DNA from: a virus
Strand: one strand, 5' to 3'
Virus genome (UHGV): UHGV-0194914
Length of the DNA stretch: 10,507 nucleotides
This document shows, one piece after another, positions 1,662-10,507 of the stretch. Made by a program: the position numbers and the translations under genes. The first letter of the stretch is position 1. Every line of letters starts with the position of its first letter. A model generated the notes under the pieces. That model was not told where the DNA came from. It searched no databases and was given only the letters and a program-made list of their open reading frames with translations.

Positions 1662-1880
1662 TCAAAGAGAGAGCGCCACCTGTCCTGATTTCATTGGATG
1701 CGGCTGAACCGGATTTGACTCTTTTGGCGTTGCAATCGAACGAACAAAAGTTTCATGGGTAACAAAAGTATGGCTGCAGTTAATGTTCTGGCACTGGTTG
1801 TAACGCTCTTTGGTCAATGAAGATACCTGAAAACTGCTGCGAGTATGGGCGGCACTTCCACACAGTGGGCAAATCATCAT
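1662..1880 (-). CDS. ogr: Ogr-type zinc-finger late-gene transcription activator (P2 Ogr / 186 B family)
   Basis: ORF 1662..1913; the likely start is Met12 (MMICPLCGSAAH..). It carries a CxxC..(x)..CxxxxC zinc-binding pattern (CPLCG ... CQNINC) and is ~72 aa, matching P2 Ogr (MFHCPLCQHAAH..CQNVNC) from memory. It sits immediately downstream of D, as in P2. Confidence 0.82.
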   Translation of the reverse strand: MMICPLCGSAAHTRSSFQVSSLTKERYNQCQNINCSHTFVTHETFVRSIATPKESNPVQPHPMKSGQVALSL

Positions 1881-1970
1881 TTTTCGAGTTCTCCCCATTT
1901 TTGCTAAATTCACAATAATGATACCGCATTATTCCATTTTGCAAACTTAAAAGTTCTCCATTGCGAAGAA

Positions 1971-3071
1971 TCATTCCATTTCGAAATCATCAATCCTCAC
2001 TTCAAGCTCCAGACTGGTTGTAAAACCGTTATCGGGGCTGACGGTATGCGTCAGAGTCGTAATGGTCCATTCCGCATCATCTATCGGCTGTTTAAAGCCA
2101 CTGACTTTCACTGGCATTTCCGTGTAGAGATCTGCCCGACCTTCTGCCAGTTGTAGCGAGAATGACGCAACGCCGCGTTGCAGGCGTTCCCACTGCATTT
2201 TCGCCGCCCGTTCGGCGTTGCTCCGGTTGGCATAGGTGCGATTAAGTACCAGCACGTTTTCATCTGTACCCACCAGGTAATCGCCCTGCTTCGCTTCCGG
2301 CTCTTTCTTCTGCTTCTTAGTCCTGCGCTTACGCTTCACCGTGGTACTTTCTTTCTTCGCAGGTTCGCGGGTATGCAACCAGCTGGCAATTACGCCCGTG
2401 TAGGCTCCGCGATCTGCCAGGGTAAAGCGGTGACTGTCGCCGTCCTTGCGTGTGATAGTGATCACTGGCAGTGGTTTACCAGTGGCGTTTTTGCCCTGCC
2501 CCTGCCGGATGAATAACAGATTGCCATTTTTCACCGACGCGATGGCACCGTACTGTCGCGCCAGCCGCATCAGAAAACTGCCGTCACTCTCATTAGTCTG
2601 GTCTATATGCTCCACGGGTTTATCTGACAGGTCTTTACCCAGTGCCATCTTCAGCTTGTGCCGCGCGGCTATTTCCTTCACCACTTCCCCGACGGTGGTC
2701 TTATGCCACGATTTTTCACGGCGGGTATTCAACGTTTCCCGAAAATCAGCACTTCGCGCCCGGATAGTCAGGCGGTCCGGTGCGCCAGTGTGTTCAATCT
2801 CGTCCACTGTGAATGCCCCTTTAGGGAAAAGCGGCTGCCCCTTCCAGCCCAGCGCCAGCGTAATGACCGCACCACGGCGCGGCAGCACGATTTTTCCGTC
2901 AGCGTCGTCCAGCTCCAGATCAAGCTGGTCCGCTTCAAAGCCCCGGTTATCCGTCAGCGTCAAACTCATCAGGCGGTTATCCAGCACAGTGGTGATATCC
3001 CTGCCCTCAATACTGATGCTGAATGCGGGAGTTTTGTTGCCTTTGTTAAGCAGTTCAGAGCTGAAATTCAC
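1971..3071 (-). CDS. Phage tail protein D (P2 gpD, late control gene D family)
   Basis: 366-aa ORF with a lysine-rich internal linker (KRKRRTKKQKKEPEAK) and the gpD-like N-terminal motif (..TPAFSISIEGRDITT..). Its start overlaps the stop of the upstream U gene, and it follows U as in P2. Confidence 0.85.
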   Translation of the reverse strand: MNFSSELLNKGNKTPAFSISIEGRDITTVLDNRLMSLTLTDNRGFEADQLDLELDDADGKIVLPRRGAVITLALGWKGQPLFPKGAFTVDEIEHTGAPDRLTIRARSADFRETLNTRREKSWHKTTVGEVVKEIAARHKLKMALGKDLSDKPVEHIDQTNESDGSFLMRLARQYGAIASVKNGNLLFIRQGQGKNATGKPLPVITITRKDGDSHRFTLADRGAYTGVIASWLHTREPAKKESTTVKRKRRTKKQKKEPEAKQGDYLVGTDENVLVLNRTYANRSNAERAAKMQWERLQRGVASFSLQLAEGRADLYTEMPVKVSGFKQPIDDAEWTITTLTHTVSPDNGFTTSLELEVRIDDFEME

Positions 3072-3553
3072 GACAGCAGCCCTCCCACCGTTTTACTGAT
3101 ATCGCTTAAGGCAGACGTTGCCGTGTCCTGCAGATTATTCAGTTGCGCACTGAGATCACCGAACATATCGGACAGGGATTCATCCACTCGTTTGAGCGAC
3201 AGGGTGAACTCAATCCGGCGCGGCATACCGTCGCGGAAAAACTCCGTTTTAGTCTGATTCAGTCCCTCAATCACATACATGCCGTAAATCGTGCCGCTGC
3301 CTTCAATCAGGGGCCATGCTTTCCCCTGTTCTGCCATCTGCTCCAGTGCCAGCAACGACAGCCTGCCGCCTGTTATCTCCGGCATAAGAACACCGGAAAG
3401 CGTCAGCATGTCGTTTTCCGGTCCCAGAAACTGCGTGGACGGACGTCGGTTTACCCGACTGTTTGCCGCATGTCGCCAGCTGCGTTGATACTGCAGTTCC
3501 TGATACGGAACGGTGCGCAGCATAAACACGTACAATCCCAGCACCATCATCAT
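3068..3553 (-). CDS. Phage tail protein U (P2 gpU family)
   Basis: 161-aa ORF, a size typical of gpU, lying between the tape-measure remnant and D. Stop/start overlap with neighbours on both sides. Confidence 0.8.
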   Translation of the reverse strand: MMMVLGLYVFMLRTVPYQELQYQRSWRHAANSRVNRRPSTQFLGPENDMLTLSGVLMPEITGGRLSLLALEQMAEQGKAWPLIEGSGTIYGMYVIEGLNQTKTEFFRDGMPRRIEFTLSLKRVDESLSDMFGDLSAQLNNLQDTATSALSDISKTVGGLLS

Positions 3554-4479
3554 GCGTCGTATCCCCCCTGATCGCTGTAGTTACTCCTGGCTTTTGCCTT
3601 CAGCCTGCGTTCACGTTCATCAAGCTGGCGTGCCACCTCCCGCGCAATATCCTGCGCACTTTGTCCTGGCTGCGTCTGAATGATGATCTGCATCGGTGCC
3701 TCAATCCGTTGAACGGGCGGCACAGTGGCTGCGCGACTCACAATTGCTTCTCCACCTTTCGCGGGAAGTGCCAAAGGGTGCAACGGTGGAAGCTCTGCTG
3801 GCGCGGCAGCAACGCCCATCATTCCGGCAACAACGGCAGCCAGTGCAGCTGTATTTCTCCGGCTGGTCACATTTGCCGGGCCGTTAACAATTTCCGGCCC
3901 GTTTTCACCGACGATGCCAAACTGCCCGCGCGGGATATACCCTCCGCTGTCATACATCCCCGCAAAGCCATATCCCCATGATGGAAAACCACCCGATGGC
4001 ATCATCACTTTACCGTCTGCATTCACCGTCGCAGGTTGCTGACGCGTCACGCTTTCCGGCAGTTTTGCCTTTGCGGCCTCTTTACTGACAATGCCGAGCT
4101 TCTCCAGCAACCAGGAAACGCCGGATTTCAGGGAGTCCAGCGGATGCATGACCATATTCAGCCCTTCCGCCAGTGCCTCCCCGAATCGCCGCCCCATTGC
4201 CGCTGCACTCTGCAGTTCGGCAGAGGTCGACTTAACGGGCGTCAGCAGATCAGTAAACCAGCCCCACAGCGCCTGTACTTTGTCGCCAATCCACTGGAAC
4301 ACGGGCTTAAGCGGTTCGAATGCTGCACTGACGGGACCTGCCGCCGCTTTGAATCCTTCCACCACGCCACCAAGAAATGCGGTGATGGGTTGCCAGTATT
4401 TCCAGACAACCAGCGCCACGCCCGCCAGTGCAGTAACCACAAGACCTATCGGACTGAGCAGAGCACCTATGGCAACAGA
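3550..4479 (-). pseudogene. Tail tape-measure protein (P2 gpT family), C-terminal ~300 codons only; N-terminal ~60% missing
   Basis: ORF 3550..4440 begins at a GTG, and the frame stays open upstream to ~4584 with no ATG. The hydrophobic segment ([25 protein letters not shown]) and Ala/Gly-rich C-terminus are typical of tape-measure proteins. At ~296-310 aa it is far shorter than a P2-type gpT (~800 aa), and sheath, tube and E genes are absent between G and this remnant. Confidence 0.7.
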
Positions 4480-4597
4480 TGATGAAACGAAACTGTTACT
4501 GGCATGGAAAAAATATCGCGTGCTATTGATGCGTATTAATACTTTAACAGCACTCGATATTGAATGGCCTACGCCTCCGGCAGTTCAGGCCAGATGA
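4468..4597 (+). pseudogene. Inverted C-terminal fragment of a second tail-fibre assembly (Tfa) gene, convergent with G
   Basis: The last ~42 codons of + ORF 4091..4597 read [42 protein letters not shown], matching the conserved Tfa C-terminal motif ([22 protein letters not shown]) from memory. Upstream codons in the same frame show no Tfa-like character. Its stop (4595-4597) lies inside the last codons of G on the opposite strand. Confidence 0.5.
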
Positions 4598-5180
4598 CAT
4601 CCGGCGCGGTGCTGGTATCTGTTGCCGTCACCGCGTCAATGTAATCCAGCACAGCGTTAAGTCGGGTGTTTTCTGGCTGCGTCAGCTTCCGCCCGGCCTG
4701 CAATTTCAGTTGAATCAGACTGATGGAAGCCATTGCAGTATCAATCAGCGACTGGCGTTGTGCTTCTGCTGCATCTACTGCGGCGCTATGCTGTGCATCG
4801 GTATCCGTCACCCATTTCTCACCATCCCATTTATCGTATGGTGTTAACGGGGCGATAGTGGTTGTATTATCAGGGTAATCACCCGGAGCTGTGATTTCTT
4901 TTGATTCTCCTGTTTCGGTGCTAAAGACGATTTCACCGCGATGGTCTGGCACATATTCCCATGAGTTAAAATCTGCAGAACGGCAGATTGCATAACCAGC
5001 CTTATGTGTAACTGGTGCATCTAAACAAGAACATGCCGGGATACCGACGCCAACCGCAAGATATTCAGTTGATATGGAAATATATTCCCGCGTTTCTCCG
5101 TTGTAGTTGTAAACGGTAATGAAGCCAGCCTCTGTGGCAAATCCGTTTTCATCCAAAGTGATTTTTTTTGTGGTCATCAT
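4569..5180 (-). CDS. Tail fibre assembly protein (P2 gpG / Tfa family)
   Basis: 203-aa ORF immediately downstream of tail fibre H with a 4-bp overlap. The C-terminus (..[22 protein letters not shown]) carries the Tfa signature. Confidence 0.8.
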
Positions 5181-6694
5181 GCTGCCCTTACAATGTAGTT
5201 AAATGCAATGTTACGTGGCCTTGTTTCTGCTGATGTTCTTGCACTCCTGGATAAATCAAGTGTCACACCATAGTAACTAAATGCATTACCAGTTGATGGA
5301 GCGGCATATTTAACCCCAGAACTAGAACCAACATTAAAAACTCCAGATGCTGAGGAAGCTGACCCCATAGTGTTATCAATCAGAGAACCCGTAACATTTT
5401 GCATAGCGTCAAGTTGTTCGCTTAATAAAGCGCGTCCACTATCAACATCACGCCCGTCATCCCAGCCACGAATAAATTCACCTCGTAAATCAGGCAATTT
5501 ATTTGTCGGATAAGCCTTTGCCAGTTCCGGGTATTCTTCAGCAGAAAAAACCGCACCGTTGCATTTCAGCCAGCCTGTTGGAGGTGTCTCAGAAGGCCAC
5601 GGAACAGGCGCACCAACAGGTAATGCAGAACCTTCTCCCAAACCAAGGTATGTGAGAAGACCAGCTACATCTTTTCCACTCAAATTGGTAAGCGTATTGT
5701 CCAGCGGTTGTTTACCTGCCAGCGCATTAAGCATTGTCGTGGCAAAGTTCGGATCATTCCCCAGTGCCGCCGCCAGTTCGTTCAGTGTATCCAGTGCAGC
5801 AGGTGCAGAACCCACCATTCCTGCAATCGCCGATTTCACAAAAGCCGTAGTGGCAATCTGTGTATTGTTGACCGACTGCGCCGCCGTGGGGGCTGTTGGC
5901 GTTCCGGTGAGTGCCGGACTCGACAACGGTGCTTTTAGTGCCAGCGCATTGTTAATGGTGGTACTGAAATTCGGATCATTGTTAATGGCTGCGGCTATTT
6001 CTTTCAGCGTGTCCAGCGTGGCTGGCGCACCATTAATAAGGGCCGTCAGTGCCGCCTGTACAAACGCAGTGGTCGCAACCTGCGTGGTATTATTCCCCGC
6101 CGCTGGCGTTGGCGCTTTGGGGGTTCCGGTAAATGTCGGGCTGGCTTTTGGCGCGTACTGTGAATGAGGGTCCTGTGCAGCAAGATGTTTTGCCATCAGG
6201 TCATCCACGTACACCTTCAGCTCCAGTACCTTGTTATCCACATACTTGCGGGTTGCCAGCACTACAGCAGGGTCGATTTTCAGGGTGATATTGTCCGTAC
6301 TGCTGGTAATCAGCACCATGCGCACGGTCTGGGTGCGCCCGCTGCCTTCAGCCAGTTGCGGCTTATAGCTTTCCGGGCAGTTGCCCACGGCAATCAATGC
6401 CCCGGACTCATCAAACAGGCCCACTTCACGTATCCACCAACCGCCCTCGTTTTCAGGGATCACCTGTTCAGCAATAATCTGGCTGCTATTCTGCGGGTCG
6501 ATATAAAGCATATTCAGCGCAGCCCGGCGTTTCTCATTTACCAGTGCCGTCTGCTTTGCGTCCGGCGTTGGCAATACTCCGCCGCCATCGCCCACCGCCA
6601 TATGGGTAATTTTTAGCGGCACACCGAGCGCGGCGGCGCTGGCAAGTTTCGCCGCGCCAATATCCGTCAGCAGGGTATAAAATTTTGTGCTCAT
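5177..6694 (-). CDS. Tail fibre protein (P2 gpH family N-terminus; tandem fibre repeats; C-terminal phage tail-collar-type receptor-binding domain)
   Basis: 505-aa ORF. The N-terminus (MSTKFYTLLTDIGAAKLA..MAVGDGGG..AESYKP.LAEGSGR) matches the conserved gpH baseplate-attachment region. Two ~74-aa tandem repeats occupy the middle, and the C-terminus carries the motif PVPWPSETPPTGWLKCNGAVFSAEEYPELAKAY..LPDLRGEFIRG typical of tail-collar domains. Confidence 0.85.
   Translation of the reverse strand: MSTKFYTLLTDIGAAKLASAAALGVPLKITHMAVGDGGGVLPTPDAKQTALVNEKRRAALNMLYIDPQNSSQIIAEQVIPENEGGWWIREVGLFDESGALIAVGNCPESYKPQLAEGSGRTQTVRMVLITSSTDNITLKIDPAVVLATRKYVDNKVLELKVYVDDLMAKHLAAQDPHSQYAPKASPTFTGTPKAPTPAAGNNTTQVATTAFVQAALTALINGAPATLDTLKEIAAAINNDPNFSTTINNALALKAPLSSPALTGTPTAPTAAQSVNNTQIATTAFVKSAIAGMVGSAPAALDTLNELAAALGNDPNFATTMLNALAGKQPLDNTLTNLSGKDVAGLLTYLGLGEGSALPVGAPVPWPSETPPTGWLKCNGAVFSAEEYPELAKAYPTNKLPDLRGEFIRGWDDGRDVDSGRALLSEQLDAMQNVTGSLIDNTMGSASSASGVFNVGSSSGVKYAAPSTGNAFSYYGVTLDLSRSARTSAETRPRNIAFNYIVRAA
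5705..6161. repeat. Intragenic tandem direct repeat, two copies with ~222-bp period, inside the tail fibre gene
   Basis: The motif gccagcgcatt recurs at 5718 and 5940 and ggatcatt at 5751 and 5973, both offset by 222 bp. The encoded peptide units are ..NNTTQVATTAFVQAALTALINGAPATLDTLKEIAAAINNDPNFSTTINNALALKAP and ..NNTQIATTAFVKSAIAGMVGSAPAALDTLNELAAALGNDPNFATTMLNALAGKQP. Confidence 0.75.
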
Positions 6695-7296
6695 GGATTC
6701 ACTCTCATTGTGTCAATAACATGGACCGCCCCGCCTTCATGCGCGGTGCCACCGGAAATAATCGTTTCGTTGATATACGGATAGATCGTGATTTCTTCGC
6801 CAAGATAGCTGGCGGCTCCCACCCAATGCGGGCCGCTGGTCTGCAGATTGATGGACATGCCGATCATGTGGCGGCTACATGGTTTGGCATCGCTTATCAG
6901 TCGCTCAAGTTCCAGATAGGTATCTTCAGTGATGCCCTGGTCCTGCACGCCGATATCCAGGCGAAACGTGCCCGGTGCCTCTCCGGTCTGCCACCACTCA
7001 ATAATGCGGATCAGAAAGCCGAACGGCTCCACCACCCGCCGCACGGCACTGGTGGTCCCTTTATGCTGATGAATATAAAAAGCATCCTTCACCACCTGGC
7101 GCTTGACGCTTTCTGTCCAGCCCTCGTCCCAGCGATCCACAGAGAACGCCCAGGCGAGATAAGGCAGGAAACTGACCGGACAGGTTGCCGGATTCCACAA
7201 GTCACGAAGCGGCACCTGCAGATCAGAAATCCCGCTGCAGGTTTGCGCCAGTCGGCGCTCCAGTGGTGTTGAACCCGGTGGCAGCAGACTATTCAT
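6691..7296 (-). CDS. Baseplate assembly protein I (P2 gpI family)
   Basis: 201-aa ORF between J and H with overlapping stop/start junctions. Contains gpI-like conserved stretches (LWNP.TCP...LP.LAWAFSVDRWDE.W, GTFRLDIGV, AKP.SRH.IGMSI). Confidence 0.8.
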   Translation of the reverse strand: MNSLLPPGSTPLERRLAQTCSGISDLQVPLRDLWNPATCPVSFLPYLAWAFSVDRWDEGWTESVKRQVVKDAFYIHQHKGTTSAVRRVVEPFGFLIRIIEWWQTGEAPGTFRLDIGVQDQGITEDTYLELERLISDAKPCSRHMIGMSINLQTSGPHWVGAASYLGEEITIYPYINETIISGGTAHEGGAVHVIDTMRVNP

Positions 7297-7963
7297 CCGT
7301 TCCTCCGTTGGTTACGCTCCACTGCGTACATGATGCCGCCTGTGTTTTGTTCAGGACCACATCCGCCAGAGGAGAAGCCAGCTCCACACGCTGCACCCCC
7401 TCAACATGCAGGGCGGCAAAGATGGCGCTACGGCGAATATCCCGACCAAGACGCGTCTGACTGGCGATGTACTTCTGCAGGCTGGCTTTTGCCGCTGCCA
7501 TTACCGGCTCTGCTTCCGGTCCAGGATAGAGAAAAATGGTGGCTTCCACGCGATACGGGATGATTTCTGCGCTGCGAACCGTAAGACGGTCAGCCACCGG
7601 GCGGACGTTCTCACTGTTCAGAGCTTTTTCCACCACGTCCAGCAGGTCTTTTTCTGCGGTTCCATCGCCTTCGCGGCTAAGGACAGTCAGCACCACCTCT
7701 GCAGGTGCCGGGCTGGTTGCACTGGCATCCGCCACCCGACCGTCGGCGCTTCGGGCATGAAATTCATAAGCTGCAGTTGGCCCCGCAACAGAAAGCCCTT
7801 CAAAGGCTGCAGGCACACGCAGGCGTAACGCTTCATCGCTTTCCATCACAGCTGCAACGGACGGCACAGCGTCATTATCAGCAGGCGTCACCGTCAGGCG
7901 TTTCACGTTGTAGTTGGCAGCGAGCTGGTCAAGATCGCTGCCCATCGCGTATCCAGCCCCTGA
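7289..7963 (-). pseudogene. Baseplate assembly protein J (P2 gpJ family), N-terminally truncated by ~80 codons
   Basis: ORF 7289..7945 (218 aa), with the frame open a further 5 codons upstream to 7960 before an in-frame stop at 7964-7966. The sequence (..DLDQLAANYNVKRLTVTPADN..FEGLSVAG..YEFHARSADGRVAD..YLYPGPE..LGRDIRRSAIFAALHVEGVQRVELASPLADVVLN) aligns with the C-terminal ~220 residues of a ~300-aa gpJ from memory. Confidence 0.75.
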
Positions 7964-8280
7964 TTAAACACACCTTTTACATACACCCAGCGCGGCAACT
8001 GTCGGCACGCATCCGCCCAGCGCCGCTGGTTGAGCAATTTCACCAACGTGGAACTGCAGGCATTGCCCGTTCCCACGTTGAAGGCAAACGACACCACCGC
8101 GTCATACACCTTCTGCGGCGGCTGTTGCTTCACACACCTTTCCAGCACCCGCTCCACACGTAGCACGTTGGAGATCAGCCCTTCTGCTGCCTGTCGTTCC
8201 GTAATGGTTTTGCCGGGAATGACGCCCGACGTATTACCAATGCCGTCGGTCCAGACAAACGGTGACGGATAAGGCGTCCA
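7903..8280 (-). pseudogene. Phage lysozyme (GH24, T4-lysozyme/P22 gp19-type endolysin) lacking its N-terminal region, including the expected catalytic Glu
   Basis: Minus-strand frame open from 8280 down to the stop at 7903. It encodes ..VWTDGIGNTSGVIPGKTITERQAAEGL..VYDAVVSFAFNVGTGNACSSTLVKLLNQRRWADACRQLPRWVYVKG.., which fits the GH24 pattern (TIGxGHT.. / YDALVSFxFNxGxGAFxxSTLLRKLN..W / RW.YAGGK). There is an in-frame stop at 8281-8283 and no start codon before the conserved core. Confidence 0.7.
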
Positions 8281-8387
8281 TCAGCCAACATGTCATTGAT
8301 GGTATCGATGGACAGTCCTGTCAGCTCGCTATAGCGTTCAATAGTCACATGAGGCGTGGTAAGAGTGATTGAAATGTTAGGTCTCAT
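8272..8387 (-). pseudogene. Cox/Apl-type excisionase and switch regulator, N-terminal ~38 codons (HTH) only; the ORF continues out of frame over lysozyme DNA
   Basis: ORF 8175..8387 begins MRPNISITLTTPHVTIERYSELTGLSIDTINDMLADGRL. The segment SELTGLSIDTINDMLADGRL aligns position-for-position with the P2 Cox HTH (AKLIGKSTGAVRRMIDKGKL, recalled from memory). Residues after ~38 are encoded by the same DNA that in another frame gives the lysozyme core, so they are probably not native. The gene is divergent from cI, as in P2/186. Confidence 0.5.
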
Positions 8388-8512
8388 GATGCAACATTCC
8401 TCGTTTAATGATGATTAATCAGGACGAATACGGATCGTTTGTATTTTGTGAACACCATAAACATACGATCGCACTGTGAAATCGTCAAGATAAAAGTTCA
8501 CTTGGAGTGACC
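8388..8512. promoter_or_regulatory. Lysis-lysogeny switch region between cox' and cI, with a candidate sigma70 promoter for the cox direction and candidate operator repeats
   Basis: On the minus strand, TTGACG (complement of 8483-8488), a 17-nt spacer and TATGTT (complement of 8460-8465) form a plausible -35/-10 pair near the cI start, consistent with face-to-face promoters as in 186/P2. A GTGAAC / GTTCAC inverted repeat lies at 8448-8453 and 8496-8501. GATCG motifs occur at 8433-8437 and 8467-8471. GGAG at 8504-8507 precedes the cI ATG at 8513. Confidence 0.35.
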
Positions 8513-9082
8513 ATGAATTTGGAGAAAGGCGGACGAGGCGCTATAGAGCGCATGGTAGAAGCTTATGGATTCAAAACTCGACAGGCGTTGTGCGATCATT
8601 TAGGAATCTCTAAAAGTACACTCGCTACACGCTACATGCGTGACTCATTCCCAGCAGAATGGGTAATCCAGTGCGCCCTTGAAACGGGCACCTCGCTTAA
8701 TTGGCTCACAACTGGACATGGTTCAAAGCAAACTTCAGGTAATACAAATACGATGGAAGTTGCTAAATATGTATTATCTGATGGTGCCTTGCGTGAAGAC
8801 GGTTTTTATATTTTTGATAAGGGATTTCTACCCTCTACGTTTAAAAAACCTTTTGTCATCACAGATAACAATTCTGAATTTATTTGTGATAAAGAATTTG
8901 ATGATATACGTGATGGTAAATGGGTAATAAGTATTGATGGCGAAATAACAATCCGCGACATTACTCGTTTACCCGGTGGAAGAATCTTCGTTGAAGGTGG
9001 AAACAGATCCTTCGAGTGCAAGATAGAAGATGTTGAAATAATTGGAAAAATTATAAGTTTAACAATTAAGTACGTTAGGTAA
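8513..9082 (+). CDS. cI: Phage CI-type immunity repressor (186 CI family: N-terminal HTH, C-terminal oligomerisation domain)
   Basis: ORF 8507..9082; the ATG at 8513 preceded by GGAG is the likelier start than the GTG at 8507. The N-terminus (..IERMVEAYGFKTRQALCDHLGISKSTLATRYMRDSFPAEWVIQCALETGTSLNWLTTG) is an HTH of the phage CI-repressor type. Its ~190-aa size and C-terminal motifs (..GKWVISIDGEITIRDITRLPGGRIFVEGGNRSFEC..) match 186 CI from memory, not the ~99-aa P2 C. Confidence 0.8.
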   Translation: MNLEKGGRGAIERMVEAYGFKTRQALCDHLGISKSTLATRYMRDSFPAEWVIQCALETGTSLNWLTTGHGSKQTSGNTNTMEVAKYVLSDGALREDGFYIFDKGFLPSTFKKPFVITDNNSEFICDKEFDDIRDGKWVISIDGEITIRDITRLPGGRIFVEGGNRSFECKIEDVEIIGKIISLTIKYVR

Positions 9083-9097
9083 TACCGGGAGGAAACT

Positions 9098-9289
9098 ATG
9101 CTTGGTAAGGTATTTTTTGTGGTTTTATCATGCTCTTTGTTATTAAACCCACTAACTACCTATGCTAAAAATTATCCTTGTTCTGGGAAAAAGGGAGGTG
9201 TCTCTCACTGTACCTCCGATGGAAAGTTCGTTTGCAATGATGGAACTATTAGTAAATCAAAAAAAATCTGTACTAAAAACTCGCGATAA
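9098..9289 (+). CDS. Small secreted Cys-rich basic peptide (63-aa precursor; predicted Sec signal peptide, ~40-aa mature peptide with 4 Cys); function unknown, a moron-like insertion between cI and int
   Basis: Strong SD (GGAGG, 9087-9091) sits 6 nt before the ATG at 9098 and only 15 nt after the cI stop. The N-terminus [23 protein letters not shown] has n-, h- and c-regions with a TYA-type cleavage site. The mature part [40 protein letters not shown] is Lys-rich with C-x9-C-x7-C-x11-C spacing. The region is markedly AT-rich compared with the tail genes. Confidence 0.55.
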
Positions 9290-9475
9290 TTTTTGCTTTT
9301 ATATCTGCGCCTAATATAACAATGAGCCGCAGGCTAACCGCAAAAGTCACATACTCACATAGCAAAAAATAGCCAACTTCATTATGGCTTCAGTGAGATG
9401 TATGGTCGCAAGATTTCATACATTGACACTGGTTATACATACAGTAAAAATGCTCTCTATTGGAGGGCATTTTTT

Positions 9476-10507
9476 ATGGCAGTACGAAAACTCACCACAG
9501 GAAAATGGCTTTGCGAATGTTACCCCGCCGGACGTAGTGGGCGTCGTGTGCGTAAACAATTCGCCACCAAAAGCGAAGCACTGGCTTTTGAGCGTCACAC
9601 GATGGAAGAAACCGAAGCAAAGCCCTGGCTGGGCGAATCAGTAGATCGTCGAACCCTGAAAGACGTGGTTGAGCTATGGTTCAAACTACATGGTAAATCT
9701 CTGACTGCTGGGCAGCATGTCTATGACAAATTGCTGCTGATGGTTGACGCTCTGGGCAATCCCCTTGCAACCGATCTCACATCTAAAATGTTTGCCCATT
9801 ATCGAGATAAACGACTGACAGGTGAGATCTACTTCAGCGAGAAATGGAAGAAAGGGGCCAGCCCGGTCACCATTAACCTGGAGCAAAGCTATCTAAGTAG
9901 TGTTTTTAGCGAACTATCCCGCCTGGGCGAATGGTCGTATCCAAACCCACTGGAGAACATGCGAAAATTCACCATCGCAGAAAAAGAGATGGCATGGCTT
10001 ACCCATGAGCAGATTGTTGAACTGCTGGATGATTGCAAACGTCAGGACCCAATTCTGGCACTGGTAGTCAAGATATGCTTAAGCACAGGCGCACGCTGGC
10101 GAGAAGCAATAAACCTTACCCGATCACAGGTGACCAAATACCGAATTACCTTTGTAAGAACGAAGGGGAAGAAAAACAGAAGCATCCCTATCAGTAAAGA
10201 GCTTTATGAAGAGATCATGGCGCTTGATGGGTTCAATTTCTTCACAGACTGCTATTTTCAATTTTTATCCGTGATGGAAAAAACGTCTATCGTGCTCCCT
10301 CGCGGTCAACTTACACACGTTCTGCGTCATACGTTTGCGGCGCATTTCATGATGTCGGGTGGAAACATCCTTGCTTTGCAAAAAATCCTCGGACATCACG
10401 ACATAAAAATGACTATGCGTTATGCTCATCTATCACCTGATCACTTAGAGACAGCTCTTCGTTTCAATCCACTAGCAACTTTGGATGTTACTAAATCAGA
10501 TTCTTAA
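9476..10507 (+). CDS. int: Tyrosine site-specific integrase (P2 Int family)
   Basis: ORF 9398..10507; the start is placed at the ATG at 9476 (MAVRKLTTGKWLCECYPAGRSGRRVRKQFATKSEALAFE..), which aligns with the P2 Int N-terminus (MAIKKLDDGRYEVDIRPTGRNGKRIRRKFDKKSEAVAFE..) and follows GGAGGG at 9462-9467. Catalytic-box motifs are present (..LSTGARWREA.., ..LTHVLRHTFAAHFMMSGGNILALQKILGHHDIKMTMRYAHL..). The stop is at 10505-10507. Confidence 0.88.
   Translation: MAVRKLTTGKWLCECYPAGRSGRRVRKQFATKSEALAFERHTMEETEAKPWLGESVDRRTLKDVVELWFKLHGKSLTAGQHVYDKLLLMVDALGNPLATDLTSKMFAHYRDKRLTGEIYFSEKWKKGASPVTINLEQSYLSSVFSELSRLGEWSYPNPLENMRKFTIAEKEMAWLTHEQIVELLDDCKRQDPILALVVKICLSTGARWREAINLTRSQVTKYRITFVRTKGKKNRSIPISKELYEEIMALDGFNFFTDCYFQFLSVMEKTSIVLPRGQLTHVLRHTFAAHFMMSGGNILALQKILGHHDIKMTMRYAHLSPDHLETALRFNPLATLDVTKSDS

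What the first reader, a model, noticed from the sequence alone, without database searches (positions are those of the whole stretch)
9083..9475. Small secreted Cys-rich basic peptide gene coupled to the immunity repressor
A 63-codon ORF with a strong SD starts 15 nt after the cI stop, with no intervening terminator before int, so it should be co-expressed with CI in the lysogenic state. It encodes a Sec signal peptide followed by a ~40-aa very basic mature peptide with four cysteines (two likely disulfides). Its AT-richness differs sharply from the surrounding phage genes, and P2 and 186 have cI/C adjacent to int with no gene between. Genes co-transcribed with a prophage repressor are classically lysogenic-conversion or superinfection-exclusion factors, and small periplasmic or outer-membrane proteins such as Cor and Llp block receptors. 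This peptide could be a receptor-blocking exclusion factor or a periplasmic toxin or effector. I recognise no named family for it.
Basis: partly seen in the sequence, partly recalled or inferred. Interest (0 to 1): 0.62.

Follow-up and report, generated by a model that had tools for sequence, protein, structure and literature searches.

The report
YdcA-family periplasmic moron after prophage cI
The small gene is real and strongly conserved, but it belongs to the already catalogued YdcA family of small exported proteins, whose function is unknown and which many unrelated prophages carry as an add-on gene.

Summary
The ORF (9098-9289, 63 aa) is real. It has a GGGAGG Shine-Dalgarno 5 nt upstream and starts 15 nt after the cI stop. 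It encodes a signal-peptide-like N-terminus and a 40-aa mature peptide with four Cys (pI 9.6, net charge about +7).

It is not an orphan. It passes NCBIfam NF007463 (YdcA/PRK10040) and matches PHROG 6000, and close homologues carry Pfam PF27300 (YdcA). PGAP names it "YdcA family protein". The 393-bp region occurs in 590 of 5426 complete E. coli genomes.

In the 27 core codons, synonymous sites are saturated (pS about 0.87) while pN is about 0.03.

A ydcA gene follows cI in four diverged P2/186/HP-like lineages. It also occurs in lambdoid, Acinetobacter and Moraxella phages, on plasmids and in core chromosomes.

Two reader claims fail:
- A strong hairpin plus U-tract (9446-9475) lies just before int.
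- The AT-rich block starts inside cI.

Function is unknown. My leads are rare fusions of the domain to four nuclease classes and probable homology to Legionella Dot/Icm Dis2. I therefore favour a basic periplasmic polyanion/DNA-binding adaptor expressed in lysogens, possibly hindering DNA entry. This is low-confidence inference. Receptor blocking in the manner of Cor/Llp is not supported.

The parts
8175..8387 (-). Cox-like excisionase/repressor gene, divergent from cI
   Evidence: PHROG 575 'Cox-like excisionase and repressor', E 3.8e-18. Weak match to TIGR01764 excisionase.
8513..9082 (+). 186/HP1-type CI immunity repressor. The ATG at 8513 has GGAG 6 nt upstream; the mechanical ORF begins at GTG 8507.
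   Evidence: Pfam Phage_CI_repr 2.8e-33 and Phage_CI_C 1.1e-28. The N-terminal 62 aa are 100% identical to cI of prophage L172 while the C-terminal domain has diverged. GC drops from 0.47 to 0.34 within the gene.
9087..9092 (+). Shine-Dalgarno GGGAGG for the small ORF, 5 nt before its ATG
   Evidence: Read directly from the sequence.
9098..9166 (+). Signal-peptide-like region (residues 1-23, [23 protein letters not shown]). Predicted signal peptidase I cut after TYA.
   Evidence: Hydrophobic core and -3/-1 rule. This region is variable across the family apart from the conserved alanine at -1. AlphaFold2 models residues 3-15 as a helix. 251 of 263 family proteins have a hydrophobic run before the domain. 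E. coli YdcA is described as carrying a signal sequence and being predicted periplasmic.
9167..9289 (+). Mature YdcA domain (40 aa, [40 protein letters not shown]) plus stop codon
   Evidence: NCBIfam NF007463, 116.1 bits against a cut-off of 93. PHROG 6000, 4.6e-34. Invariant motif [17 protein letters not shown]. pN 0.03 against pS 0.87. AlphaFold2 pLDDT 87-91 in the core.
9289..9347 (+). Imperfect hairpin just after the ORF stop, with no U-tract. Significance uncertain.
   Evidence: dG -14.4 kcal/mol, z -2.5. This ~105-nt stretch (9282-9386) stands where the related prophage L172 carries a KAP NTPase gene.
9418..9451 (+). Conserved box upstream of int: ACATTGAC-ACTG...ACAGT-AAAAAT. It reads as a promoter-like TTGACA-17-AAAAAT and contains an inverted repeat.
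   Evidence: Promoter scan, 10 of 12 matches. The box is invariant across 4 lineages whose Int proteins are only about 48% identical.
9446..9475 (+). 13-bp hairpin (AAAAAUGCUCUCU-AUU-GGAGGGCAUUUUU) plus U-tract. It looks like an intrinsic terminator, and its right arm contains the int SD (9462-9467).
   Evidence: dG -17.5 kcal/mol, z -6.3, 0 of 200 shuffles fold as well. The same architecture with a different sequence precedes int in L172, Yersinia L088 and Klebsiella phage 4LV2017. The simple terminator scan missed it.
9476..10507 (+). P2/186-type tyrosine integrase
   Evidence: Pfam Int_N 2.7e-32 and Phage_integrase 3.9e-22. PHROG 1.

Best explanation
Shown:
- The ORF is a member of the YdcA family (PF27300 / PRK10040). 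This is a small protein with a variable Sec-type signal peptide and an extremely conserved, basic, four-cysteine domain of about 36 aa.
- It is carried as an accessory gene (moron) directly behind the 186-type cI repressor of a deletion-riddled P2-like prophage next to ybjL.

Inferred from anatomy:
- It is translated from its own strong SD on the cI (lysogenic) transcript, so it is made whenever CI is made.
- That transcript is probably terminated or attenuated at the hairpin plus U-tract just before int. This would make cI-ydcA a two-gene unit and leave int to its own conserved upstream element.
- The peptide is exported, cut after TYA and oxidised to two disulfides in the periplasm.

Inferred mechanism (low confidence, about 0.3):
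- The basic domain is a small periplasmic adaptor that binds a universal polyanion, most likely DNA.
- In a lysogen it would hinder entry of foreign DNA (superinfecting phage, possibly other incoming DNA) through the periplasm.
For: Family membership:
- NF007463 scores 116 bits against a cut-off of 93, and PHROG 6000 matches at 4.6e-34.
- The PF27300 tag is on the 97%-identical cluster representative and is named YdcA.
- PGAP uses the name 'YdcA family protein'.

Coding status and constraint:
- pS is about 0.87 against pN about 0.03 in the core.
- There are 445 family representatives at 50% identity.

Export:
- The sequence features fit a signal peptide, and the N-terminus varies across the family except for the conserved alanine at -1.
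- The literature describes E. coli YdcA as having a signal sequence and being predicted periplasmic.

Linkage to cI:
- The spacer is 15 nt with an SD, and no + strand terminator lies between cI and the ORF.
- In HP2 the cI stop overlaps the ydcA ATG (TAATG).
- cI-ydcA adjacency recurs in lineages whose CI proteins are only 26-38% identical.

Hairpin before int.

Polyanion/DNA lead:
- The domain's net charge averages +3.4, and 96% of 233 distinct domains are positive.
- The domain is fused N-terminally to SNase, Endonuclease_NS and PLDc_2 nuclease-type domains, and to an HNH-like domain (the HNH match is below the Pfam cut-off).
- It is often fused to the PBCV basic adaptor domain.

Defence-like setting:
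- The related prophage L172 carries a PADLOC candidate defence gene (PDC-S20 KAP NTPase) right after ydcA in the same slot.
- There is a published precedent for a periplasmic effector that arrests phage DNA entry electrostatically (HXS system, PMC13128918).
Against: - No experiment links any YdcA protein to DNA binding or phage exclusion.
- The nuclease fusions are rare: 6 of 149 listed representatives, in clusters of 1-3 metagenomic sequences. They could equally mean a localisation or anchoring module.
- The only solved relative, Dis2, is a peripheral structural subunit of a secretion machine near the outer membrane. It is not known to bind DNA, and its deletion has no phenotype.
- Many family members are core chromosomal genes with no phage nearby.
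- E. coli K-12 ydcA is linked instead to acid and 3-hydroxypropionate tolerance.
- The ORF has no PADLOC hit.
- No signal-peptide predictor, transcript data or proteomics were available.
- The hairpin's terminator activity is inferred from structure only.
Confidence: 0.55

Rival explanations
1. Host-fitness (lysogenic conversion) factor for envelope stress. The prophage copy would act like chromosomal YdcA and help the cell tolerate acid or organic-acid or other envelope stress. It would have no role against incoming DNA or phages.
For: - Deleting E. coli W ydcA makes cells sensitive to 300 mM 3-hydroxypropionate, and ydcA is reported to be acid-induced through YdcI (PMC7642389).
- Many homologues are core chromosomal genes away from mobile elements.
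- Providencia variants carry long Lys/Asp/Ala-rich hydrophilic repeats after the domain.
Against: - The window protein is only about 57% identical to K-12 YdcA (loci L133/L134).
- The stress phenotype is a single observation with no mechanism.
- This reading explains neither the repeated capture by unrelated phages in lysogeny-expressed or moron slots nor the nuclease fusions.
Confidence: 0.25
2. Dis2-like structural adaptor. The domain would dock onto an outer-membrane-associated protein machine (secretin, pilus or type IV secretion apparatus, or a porin complex) from the periplasmic side. That would change the machine's assembly or its availability as a phage receptor.
For: - The YdcA profile hits Legionella Dis2 (Lpg0823), a subunit of the Dot/Icm outer-membrane cap, at E 3.6e-4.
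- Dis2 is the top Foldseek hit, with probability 0.97 and 38% identity.
- A Dis2-like protein carries the PF27300 tag, and hhalign gives E 6e-5.
- Dis2 lies near the outer membrane and is built of two such lobes.
- One family member is fused to a type VI secretion VasL domain.
Against: - Removing Dis2 leaves the Dot/Icm machine intact and functional.
- No partner machine is encoded near the gene in the window.
Confidence: 0.1
3. Receptor-specific superinfection-exclusion protein of the Cor/Llp type. It would block the outer-membrane receptor used by this phage or its competitors.
For: Its position in the lysogenic operon and its export to the envelope fit the general pattern of exclusion genes (review PMC11436027).
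Against: - There is no conserved lipobox. Cys12 in 'VLSC' is absent from most homologues.
- It shows no similarity to any exclusion family in Pfam, PHROGs or PADLOC.
- The mature sequence is nearly identical in phages of five genera with different tails and hosts, and in non-phage chromosomal genes. That is incompatible with a receptor-specific, co-evolving blocker.
Confidence: 0.05
4. Secreted toxin or antimicrobial peptide (bacteriocin-like) aimed at competitors, or a periplasmic toxin.
For: It is small, cationic and disulfide-rich.
Against: - No immunity, export or processing genes are adjacent.
- It has an ordinary Sec-type leader rather than a bacteriocin leader.
- It is carried stably as a single gene in core chromosomes and in 590 E. 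coli genomes.
- Its strong conservation is unlike that of arms-race toxins.
Confidence: 0.03

Closest known systems
E. coli K-12 YdcA (b1419) and the YdcA family (Pfam PF27300, NCBIfam PRK10040/NF007462-4, PHROG 6000)
   Same: Same architecture: a signal peptide followed by the four-Cys basic domain with the PCSGxKGG...FxCxDGxxSxSK..C motif. The ORF passes the NF007463 cut-off. PGAP already uses this name for the gene.
   Different: - The window copy is prophage-borne and placed in the cI operon, whereas K-12 ydcA is a stand-alone chromosomal gene beside rydC.
- The two are only about 57% identical, with a different leader.
- The family has no established function.
Legionella pneumophila Dis2 (Lpg0823), subunit of the Dot/Icm type IVB secretion outer-membrane cap (PDB 7MUC/7MUD)
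   Same: Each Dis2 lobe shows the same Cys/Gly pattern (C-x-K-M-G-G-I-x-x-C ... V-C-N-x-G-x-x-S). Like YdcA it has a signal peptide, and its disulfides are seen directly in the cryo-EM map. It is the best sequence-profile hit and the best fold hit in the PDB.
   Different: - Dis2 has two lobes and five disulfides, and it is built into a 13-fold secretion machine.
- The window protein is a single free lobe with no secretion system nearby.
- Statistical support is moderate (E 3.6e-4 with the leader included, 0.038 for the domain alone).
Phage P1 Sim, and the HXS effector HxsA (periplasmic blocks to phage DNA entry)
   Same: These are works-like analogies only. Both are exported, processed periplasmic proteins that stop infection after adsorption, at the DNA-entry step. 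HxsA is proposed to engage incoming DNA electrostatically (PMC13128918). The account of Sim is from my own knowledge.
   Different: - tblastn of the ORF against all phage records did not return P1, so there is no sequence relationship.
- HxsA needs radical-SAM maturation and has a peptidoglycan-binding domain.
- Nothing comparable has been shown for YdcA.
Cor (phi80/N15) and Llp (T5) receptor-blocking lipoproteins
   Same: They are small envelope proteins made by (pro)phages that protect the cell from superinfection.
   Different: - Cor and Llp are lipoproteins specific for FhuA.
- YdcA proteins lack a conserved lipobox, are not similar in sequence, and are conserved far beyond any single receptor system.
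Accessory genes in the cI-int slot of other Peduoviridae (HP2 orf1, Klebsiella phage 4LV2017 gp02, the KAP NTPase of prophage L172) and 186 orf69 downstream of int
   Same: They occupy the same variable cargo position in the lysogenic operon.
   Different: The proteins are unrelated to YdcA. The KAP NTPase is a PADLOC defence candidate (PDC-S20); the others have no known function.

Membership tests
YdcA family (NCBIfam NF007463 / PRK10040.1-2) | Whole-protein score above the curated cut-off (93 bits) | tested here: met
   116.1 bits, E 4.2e-34, covering residues 5-63 against profile positions 1-58 of 58.
YdcA family (Pfam PF27300) | Match to the Pfam YdcA model | tested here: inconclusive
   The local Pfam copy lacks PF27300, and one search found no family. 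The 97%-identical cluster representative P0001 and nearly all homologues carry the precomputed PF27300 tag, which is named YdcA. The window's exact sequence belongs to that cluster.
YdcA family | Conserved four-Cys motif PCSGxKGG-x3-C ... F-x-C-x-DG-x2-S-x-SK-x2-C | tested here: met
   All invariant columns of alignment A1 are present in the window protein: P27, C28, S29, G30, K31, K32, G33, G34, C38, F44, C46, D48, G49, S52, S54, K55, C58.
YdcA family | N-terminal Sec signal peptide and periplasmic location | tested here: inconclusive
   The sequence features fit: a hydrophobic core with mean Kyte-Doolittle 2.86, T-Y-A at -3 to -1, and a conserved alanine at -1. No SignalP/LipoP was run and there are no localisation data. 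The literature only predicts a periplasmic location for YdcA.
PHROG 6000 (phage protein family, unknown function) | Significant match to the family profile over its full length | tested here: met
   E 4.6e-34, residues 3-59 against profile positions 1-56 of 56.
Dis2 (Lpg0823) of the Dot/Icm T4SS | Sequence and fold similarity to a Dis2 lobe | tested here: inconclusive
   - Supporting: hmmsearch E 3.6e-4; Foldseek rank 1-2 with probability 0.97 but E 0.13; hhalign E 6e-5 at 64% probability; PF27300 tag on the Dis2-like protein P0334.
Dis2 (Lpg0823) of the Dot/Icm T4SS | Two tandem lobes with five disulfides, encoded in a genome with a Dot/Icm system | tested here: not met
   The window protein has a single lobe with four domain cysteines. 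The window contains no secretion-system genes.
Cor / Llp receptor-blocking exclusion lipoproteins | Lipoprotein signal (lipobox with invariant Cys) and sequence similarity to Cor or Llp | tested here: not met
   'VLSC' at residues 9-12 is not conserved in homologues. No Pfam, PHROG or PADLOC family of exclusion proteins matched.
Known anti-phage defence systems (PADLOC-DB 2.0) | Match to any defence-system protein model | tested here: not met
   The ORF matches 0 families. By contrast, the neighbouring KAP NTPase in the related prophage L172 hits PDC-S20 at 1.3e-171.
Lysogenic-operon moron (functional class, not a sequence family) | Co-transcribed with the repressor in the prophage state | not testable with these tools
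   Only anatomy is available: same strand, a 15-nt gap, its own SD, and no terminator between cI and the ORF. In HP2 the cI stop and ydcA start overlap. Transcript mapping is needed.

The most novel reading that the evidence does not exclude
YdcA-domain proteins would be a widespread, unrecognised class of tiny disulfide-locked periplasmic DNA- or polyanion-binding modules. Temperate phages of many kinds would repeatedly capture them and express them from immunity or moron slots to gate foreign DNA entry (superinfecting phage, perhaps transformation or conjugation). The supposedly Legionella-specific T4SS subunit Dis2 would be a duplicated member of the same fold.
Probability: 0.15. Interest if true: 0.7.

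Novelty: already known. Interest (0 to 1): 0.38.

Why it matters
As a sequence object this is ordinary. The exact protein is in public databases on more than 1000 contigs and is already named as a YdcA family protein.

Three things keep it from being dull:
- The family has no known function, yet its 36-residue core is almost frozen across Alpha-, Beta- and Gammaproteobacteria.
- At least four unrelated phage architectures have picked the gene up in positions expressed or tolerated in lysogens.
- This study gives three testable leads that I did not see in the papers I read: fusion of the domain to several nuclease classes, probable homology to the Dot/Icm subunit Dis2 (described in the literature as lacking homologues), and a tight cI-ydcA unit bounded by a conserved hairpin in front of int.

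If the DNA-gatekeeping idea held, it would add a very small, easily synthesised protein to the short list of defences that act at DNA entry.

Tried and rejected
- Local Pfam scan of the ORF: only a sub-threshold GULLO2 hit. The local copy lacks PF27300.
- Megablast of the cI-ORF region against phage genomes: only the int-upstream 83 bp matched, in Klebsiella phages.
- Foldseek against viral structures (BFVD): nothing below E 1.
- The AlphaFold database library was not available.
- Rfam on 8000-10507: no RNA family. No tRNA in the window.
- PADLOC on the ORF, HP2 orf1 and Klebsiella phage 4LV2017 gp02: no hits.
- A domain-only profile search of the protein database returned only single-domain proteins in its top 120, so it gave no census of fusions.
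- Weak TerY_C 'metal-binding' matches (E about 0.09) and LDL-receptor class A matches (E 0.02-0.06) were judged to reflect Cys-rich composition and were not pursued.
- The lipoprotein reading of 'VLSC' was rejected because the Cys is not conserved.
- The overlapping 50-aa ORF at 9162-9314 was rejected as a by-product of the real frame.
- The UniRef name 'Conjugal transfer protein' for the cluster was not traced. Plasmid hits are mostly Acinetobacter and Rhizobium hypothetical proteins with no evident transfer context.

Full report
**What is in the window**

The window starts with the host gene ybjL (20-1426), named from matching E. coli genomes. A P2-like prophage with large internal deletions follows. 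On the minus strand it carries ogr, D, U, a truncated tape-measure gene, a tail-fibre assembly gene, H, I, a truncated J, a lysozyme fragment and a Cox-like gene. On the plus strand it carries cI (8513-9082), the small ORF (9098-9289) and int (9476-10507). In complete E. coli genomes the same stretch spans 16-21 kb rather than 10.5 kb, so this copy is a remnant.

**Checking the observation**

The ORF, its coordinates, the 15-nt gap after the cI stop and the GGGAGG Shine-Dalgarno 5 nt before the ATG are all as described.
- The first 23 residues have a lysine-containing start, a 12-residue hydrophobic core (mean Kyte-Doolittle 2.86) and T-Y-A at positions -3 to -1.
- The remaining 40 residues contain four cysteines, nine K/R against two D/E, pI 9.64 and charge +6.8.
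- P2 and 186 have nothing between repressor and integrase.

Three points need correction.
1. The AT-rich block is not the ORF alone. GC is 0.349 in the ORF, 0.337 in the C-terminal half of cI and 0.371 in the spacer. It is 0.471 in the N-terminal half of cI, 0.464 in int and 0.536 in the tail genes.
2. There is a terminator-like element before int (described below).
3. The protein belongs to a named family.

**It is a real gene under very strong constraint**

I compared the 27 core codons with copies from other prophages: E. coli L172, Yersinia, HP2, Acinetobacter and a lambdoid phage. Synonymous sites are saturated (pS about 0.87) while nonsynonymous change is minimal (pN 0.03-0.15). Across the family the leader varies freely apart from an alanine at -1. 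The mature domain keeps an invariant P-C-S-G-K-K-G-G ... C ... F-x-C-x-D-G ... S-x-S-K ... C pattern.

**Family identity**

- The protein scores 116.1 bits on NCBIfam NF007463 (PRK10040.1-2; cut-off 93) and 4.6e-34 on PHROG 6000.
- Its exact sequence sits in a 355-member cluster seen on more than 1000 contigs.
- The cluster representative and almost all homologues carry Pfam PF27300, named YdcA.
- RefSeq annotation calls the gene 'YdcA family protein' in several E. coli genomes.
- The 393-bp region of the finding is present at 80% coverage or more in 590 of 5426 complete E. coli genomes.
- An exhaustive profile search found 445 representatives at 50% identity. A motif scan found relatives in at least 227 species-level genomes of Alpha-, Beta- and Gammaproteobacteria.

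E. coli K-12 YdcA is described as a 57-aa protein of unknown function with a signal sequence and a predicted periplasmic location. In E. coli W, deleting ydcA gave sensitivity to 3-hydroxypropionate, and ydcA is reported to be acid-induced through YdcI.

**Where the gene sits in other elements**

They do not, but the arrangement recurs.

| Lineage | Arrangement |
|---|---|
| Window type (all 80 IMG/VR loci retrieved) | cox-cI-ydcA-int |
| Second E. coli lineage (L172) | cI-ydcA-KAP NTPase-int |
| Yersinia prophages (L088, L089, L100) | cI-ydcA-int |
| Haemophilus phages HP2 and S2 | unannotated 60-aa homologue whose ATG overlaps the cI stop (TAATG), then orf1 and int |

The CI proteins of these lineages are only 26-38% identical, except that the window and L172 are 71% identical. 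The Int proteins are 48-65% identical, except 95.6% between the window and L172.

Window cI and L172 cI share a 100% identical N-terminal DNA-binding domain but a diverged C-terminal domain. Their ydcA copies are saturated at synonymous sites. The cI C-terminal domain and ydcA therefore form a mosaic, AT-rich block.

Elsewhere the gene appears in several other settings:
- on the opposite strand between Q and the lysis genes of lambdoid prophages;
- in a moron cluster between the tail-tube and tape-measure genes of Acinetobacter prophages, always followed by a DUF4236 gene;
- in the late region of Moraxella phages;
- on Acinetobacter and Rhizobium plasmids;
- as a plain chromosomal gene between housekeeping genes.

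Most of the 80 species-level genome loci show no cI or int nearby.

**Expression anatomy**

No + strand terminator lies between cI and the ORF. Together with the SD, this makes co-expression with CI the natural reading. That is inference; I have no transcript data.

Downstream, a 13-bp hairpin (9446-9474) followed by a U-run ends one base before the int ATG. Its energy is -17.5 kcal/mol, z is -6.3, and none of 200 shuffles folds as well. Its right arm contains the int SD.

The simple scan missed this hairpin, probably because the stem can extend into the A and U runs. A hairpin of the same shape but different sequence precedes int in L172, in Yersinia and in Klebsiella phage 4LV2017 (where there is one compensatory change). 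An invariant ACATTGAC-ACTG...ACAGT box with a promoter-like TTGACA-17-AAAAAT lies upstream of it.

My reading is that the lysogenic transcript is stopped or silenced for int at this point, and that int depends on its own element. This makes cI-ydcA a compact unit.

**Leads to function**

Structure and Dis2:
- AlphaFold2 models of the full protein and of the mature domain are confident in the core (pLDDT 87-91) and show a short beta-hairpin.
- The only solved relative is Legionella Dis2 (Lpg0823), a subunit of the Dot/Icm outer-membrane cap.
- In favour: profile E 3.6e-4; Foldseek ranks 1-2 with probability 0.97 and 38% identity; hhalign E 6e-5; and a Dis2-like protein carrying the PF27300 tag.

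Domain fusions:
- Among 149 listed family representatives, the domain is fused behind the leader to SNase (P0121), Endonuclease_NS (P0173, P0197, P0205) and PLDc_2 (P0193). It is also fused to an HNH-like domain (P0220), although that match is below the Pfam cut-off.
- It is also fused to a VasL domain, to Lys-rich repeats, to tandem copies of itself and, in about ten cases, to the PBCV basic adaptor domain.
- These nuclease fusions are rare, occurring in clusters of 1-3 metagenomic sequences.

Charge and neighbourhood:
- The domain is almost always cationic: mean +3.4, with 96% of 233 distinct domains positive.
- In L172 the gene is followed in the same slot by a PADLOC defence candidate, PDC-S20.

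**Most likely mechanism and rivals**

I am confident of the following: this is a YdcA-family, exported, disulfide-bonded small protein carried as a moron in the cI unit of a decaying P2-like prophage.

My preferred mechanism is that the basic domain binds a universal polyanion, most likely DNA, in the periplasm and thereby hampers entry of foreign DNA. It rests on the nuclease fusions, the charge, the repeated capture by prophages and a published precedent for electrostatic arrest of phage DNA in the periplasm (HXS system). I give this step about 0.3.

The rivals are:
- A stress-tolerance role like that of chromosomal YdcA. It is supported by one phenotype and by the many core-genome copies.
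- A Dis2-like docking role on an outer-membrane machine.
I consider this unlikely because there is no conserved lipobox and the mature sequence is nearly the same in phages of five genera and in non-phage genes.
- A toxin or antimicrobial peptide. I consider this unlikely because no immunity or export genes accompany the gene and it is stably carried as a single gene.

**Verdict**

Interest is modest. The function is unknown, conservation is extreme, and the leads found here (nuclease fusions, the Dis2 link, the cI-ydcA unit and the conserved int hairpin) are cheap to test.

Noticed in passing
window 9418-9475; also L172 7555-7611, L088 2520-2585, L164 2505-2559: A conserved control region lies in front of int. 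It has an invariant ACATTGAC-ACTG...ACAGT box (promoter-like TTGACA-17-AAAAAT). A hairpin plus U-tract follows, and the hairpin buries the int Shine-Dalgarno. The hairpin sequence differs between lineages but its shape is kept. This suggests int is uncoupled from the cI transcript.
   Followed up: partly
window 8513-9082 compared with L172 5414-5977: The cI gene is mosaic. The first 62 residues (the DNA-binding domain) are 100% identical to those of a second E. coli prophage lineage, while the C-terminal domain is only about 55% identical. GC falls from 0.47 to 0.34 at about position 8750.
   Followed up: partly
L172 6198-7529 (E. coli prophage related to the window): A 443-aa KAP-family NTPase sits between ydcA and int. 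It matches the PADLOC candidate defence system PDC-S20 at E 1.3e-171. In the window about 105 nt of unrelated sequence (9282-9386) stands in its place.
   Followed up: partly
L001 2920-3102 (Haemophilus phage HP2, NC_003315, complement of about 2486-2668); same position in phage S2: An unannotated 60-aa YdcA homologue lies directly after cI, and its ATG overlaps the cI stop codon. The reference annotations list no gene there.
   Followed up: yes
PDB 7MUC/7MUD chain AN; proteins P0334 and P0335: Legionella Dot/Icm subunit Dis2 (Lpg0823) is described in the literature as species-specific and without homologues or structural neighbours. It appears to be a tandem duplication of the YdcA domain.
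   Followed up: partly
proteins P0121, P0173, P0197, P0205, P0193, P0220; P0056-P0062 and many Beta- and Alphaproteobacterial loci (e.g. L129, L125): The YdcA domain is fused to SNase, Endonuclease_NS and PLD-type nuclease domains, and to an HNH-like domain whose match is below the Pfam cut-off. In about 105-aa proteins it is fused to a C-terminal PBCV basic adaptor domain (CxC...GPRGGxYC...GxKxY).
   Followed up: partly
window 1662-8166: The prophage is a deletion remnant beside ybjL. The tape-measure, J and lysozyme genes are truncated, and head, replication and lysis genes are missing. Yet cox, cI, ydcA and int are intact. No complete E. coli genome in the collection holds the window as one contiguous piece.
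   Followed up: partly
L167-L171 (Acinetobacter baumannii prophages), around 6001-6600: In these prophages the ydcA gene is always followed within 9-90 nt by a DUF4236 gene. The pair sits inside a variable cluster of small accessory genes between the tail-tube and tape-measure genes.
   Followed up: no
window 9289-9347: An imperfect 59-nt hairpin starts at the ORF stop codon (-14.4 kcal/mol, z -2.5) and has no U-tract. Its role is unknown.
   Followed up: no
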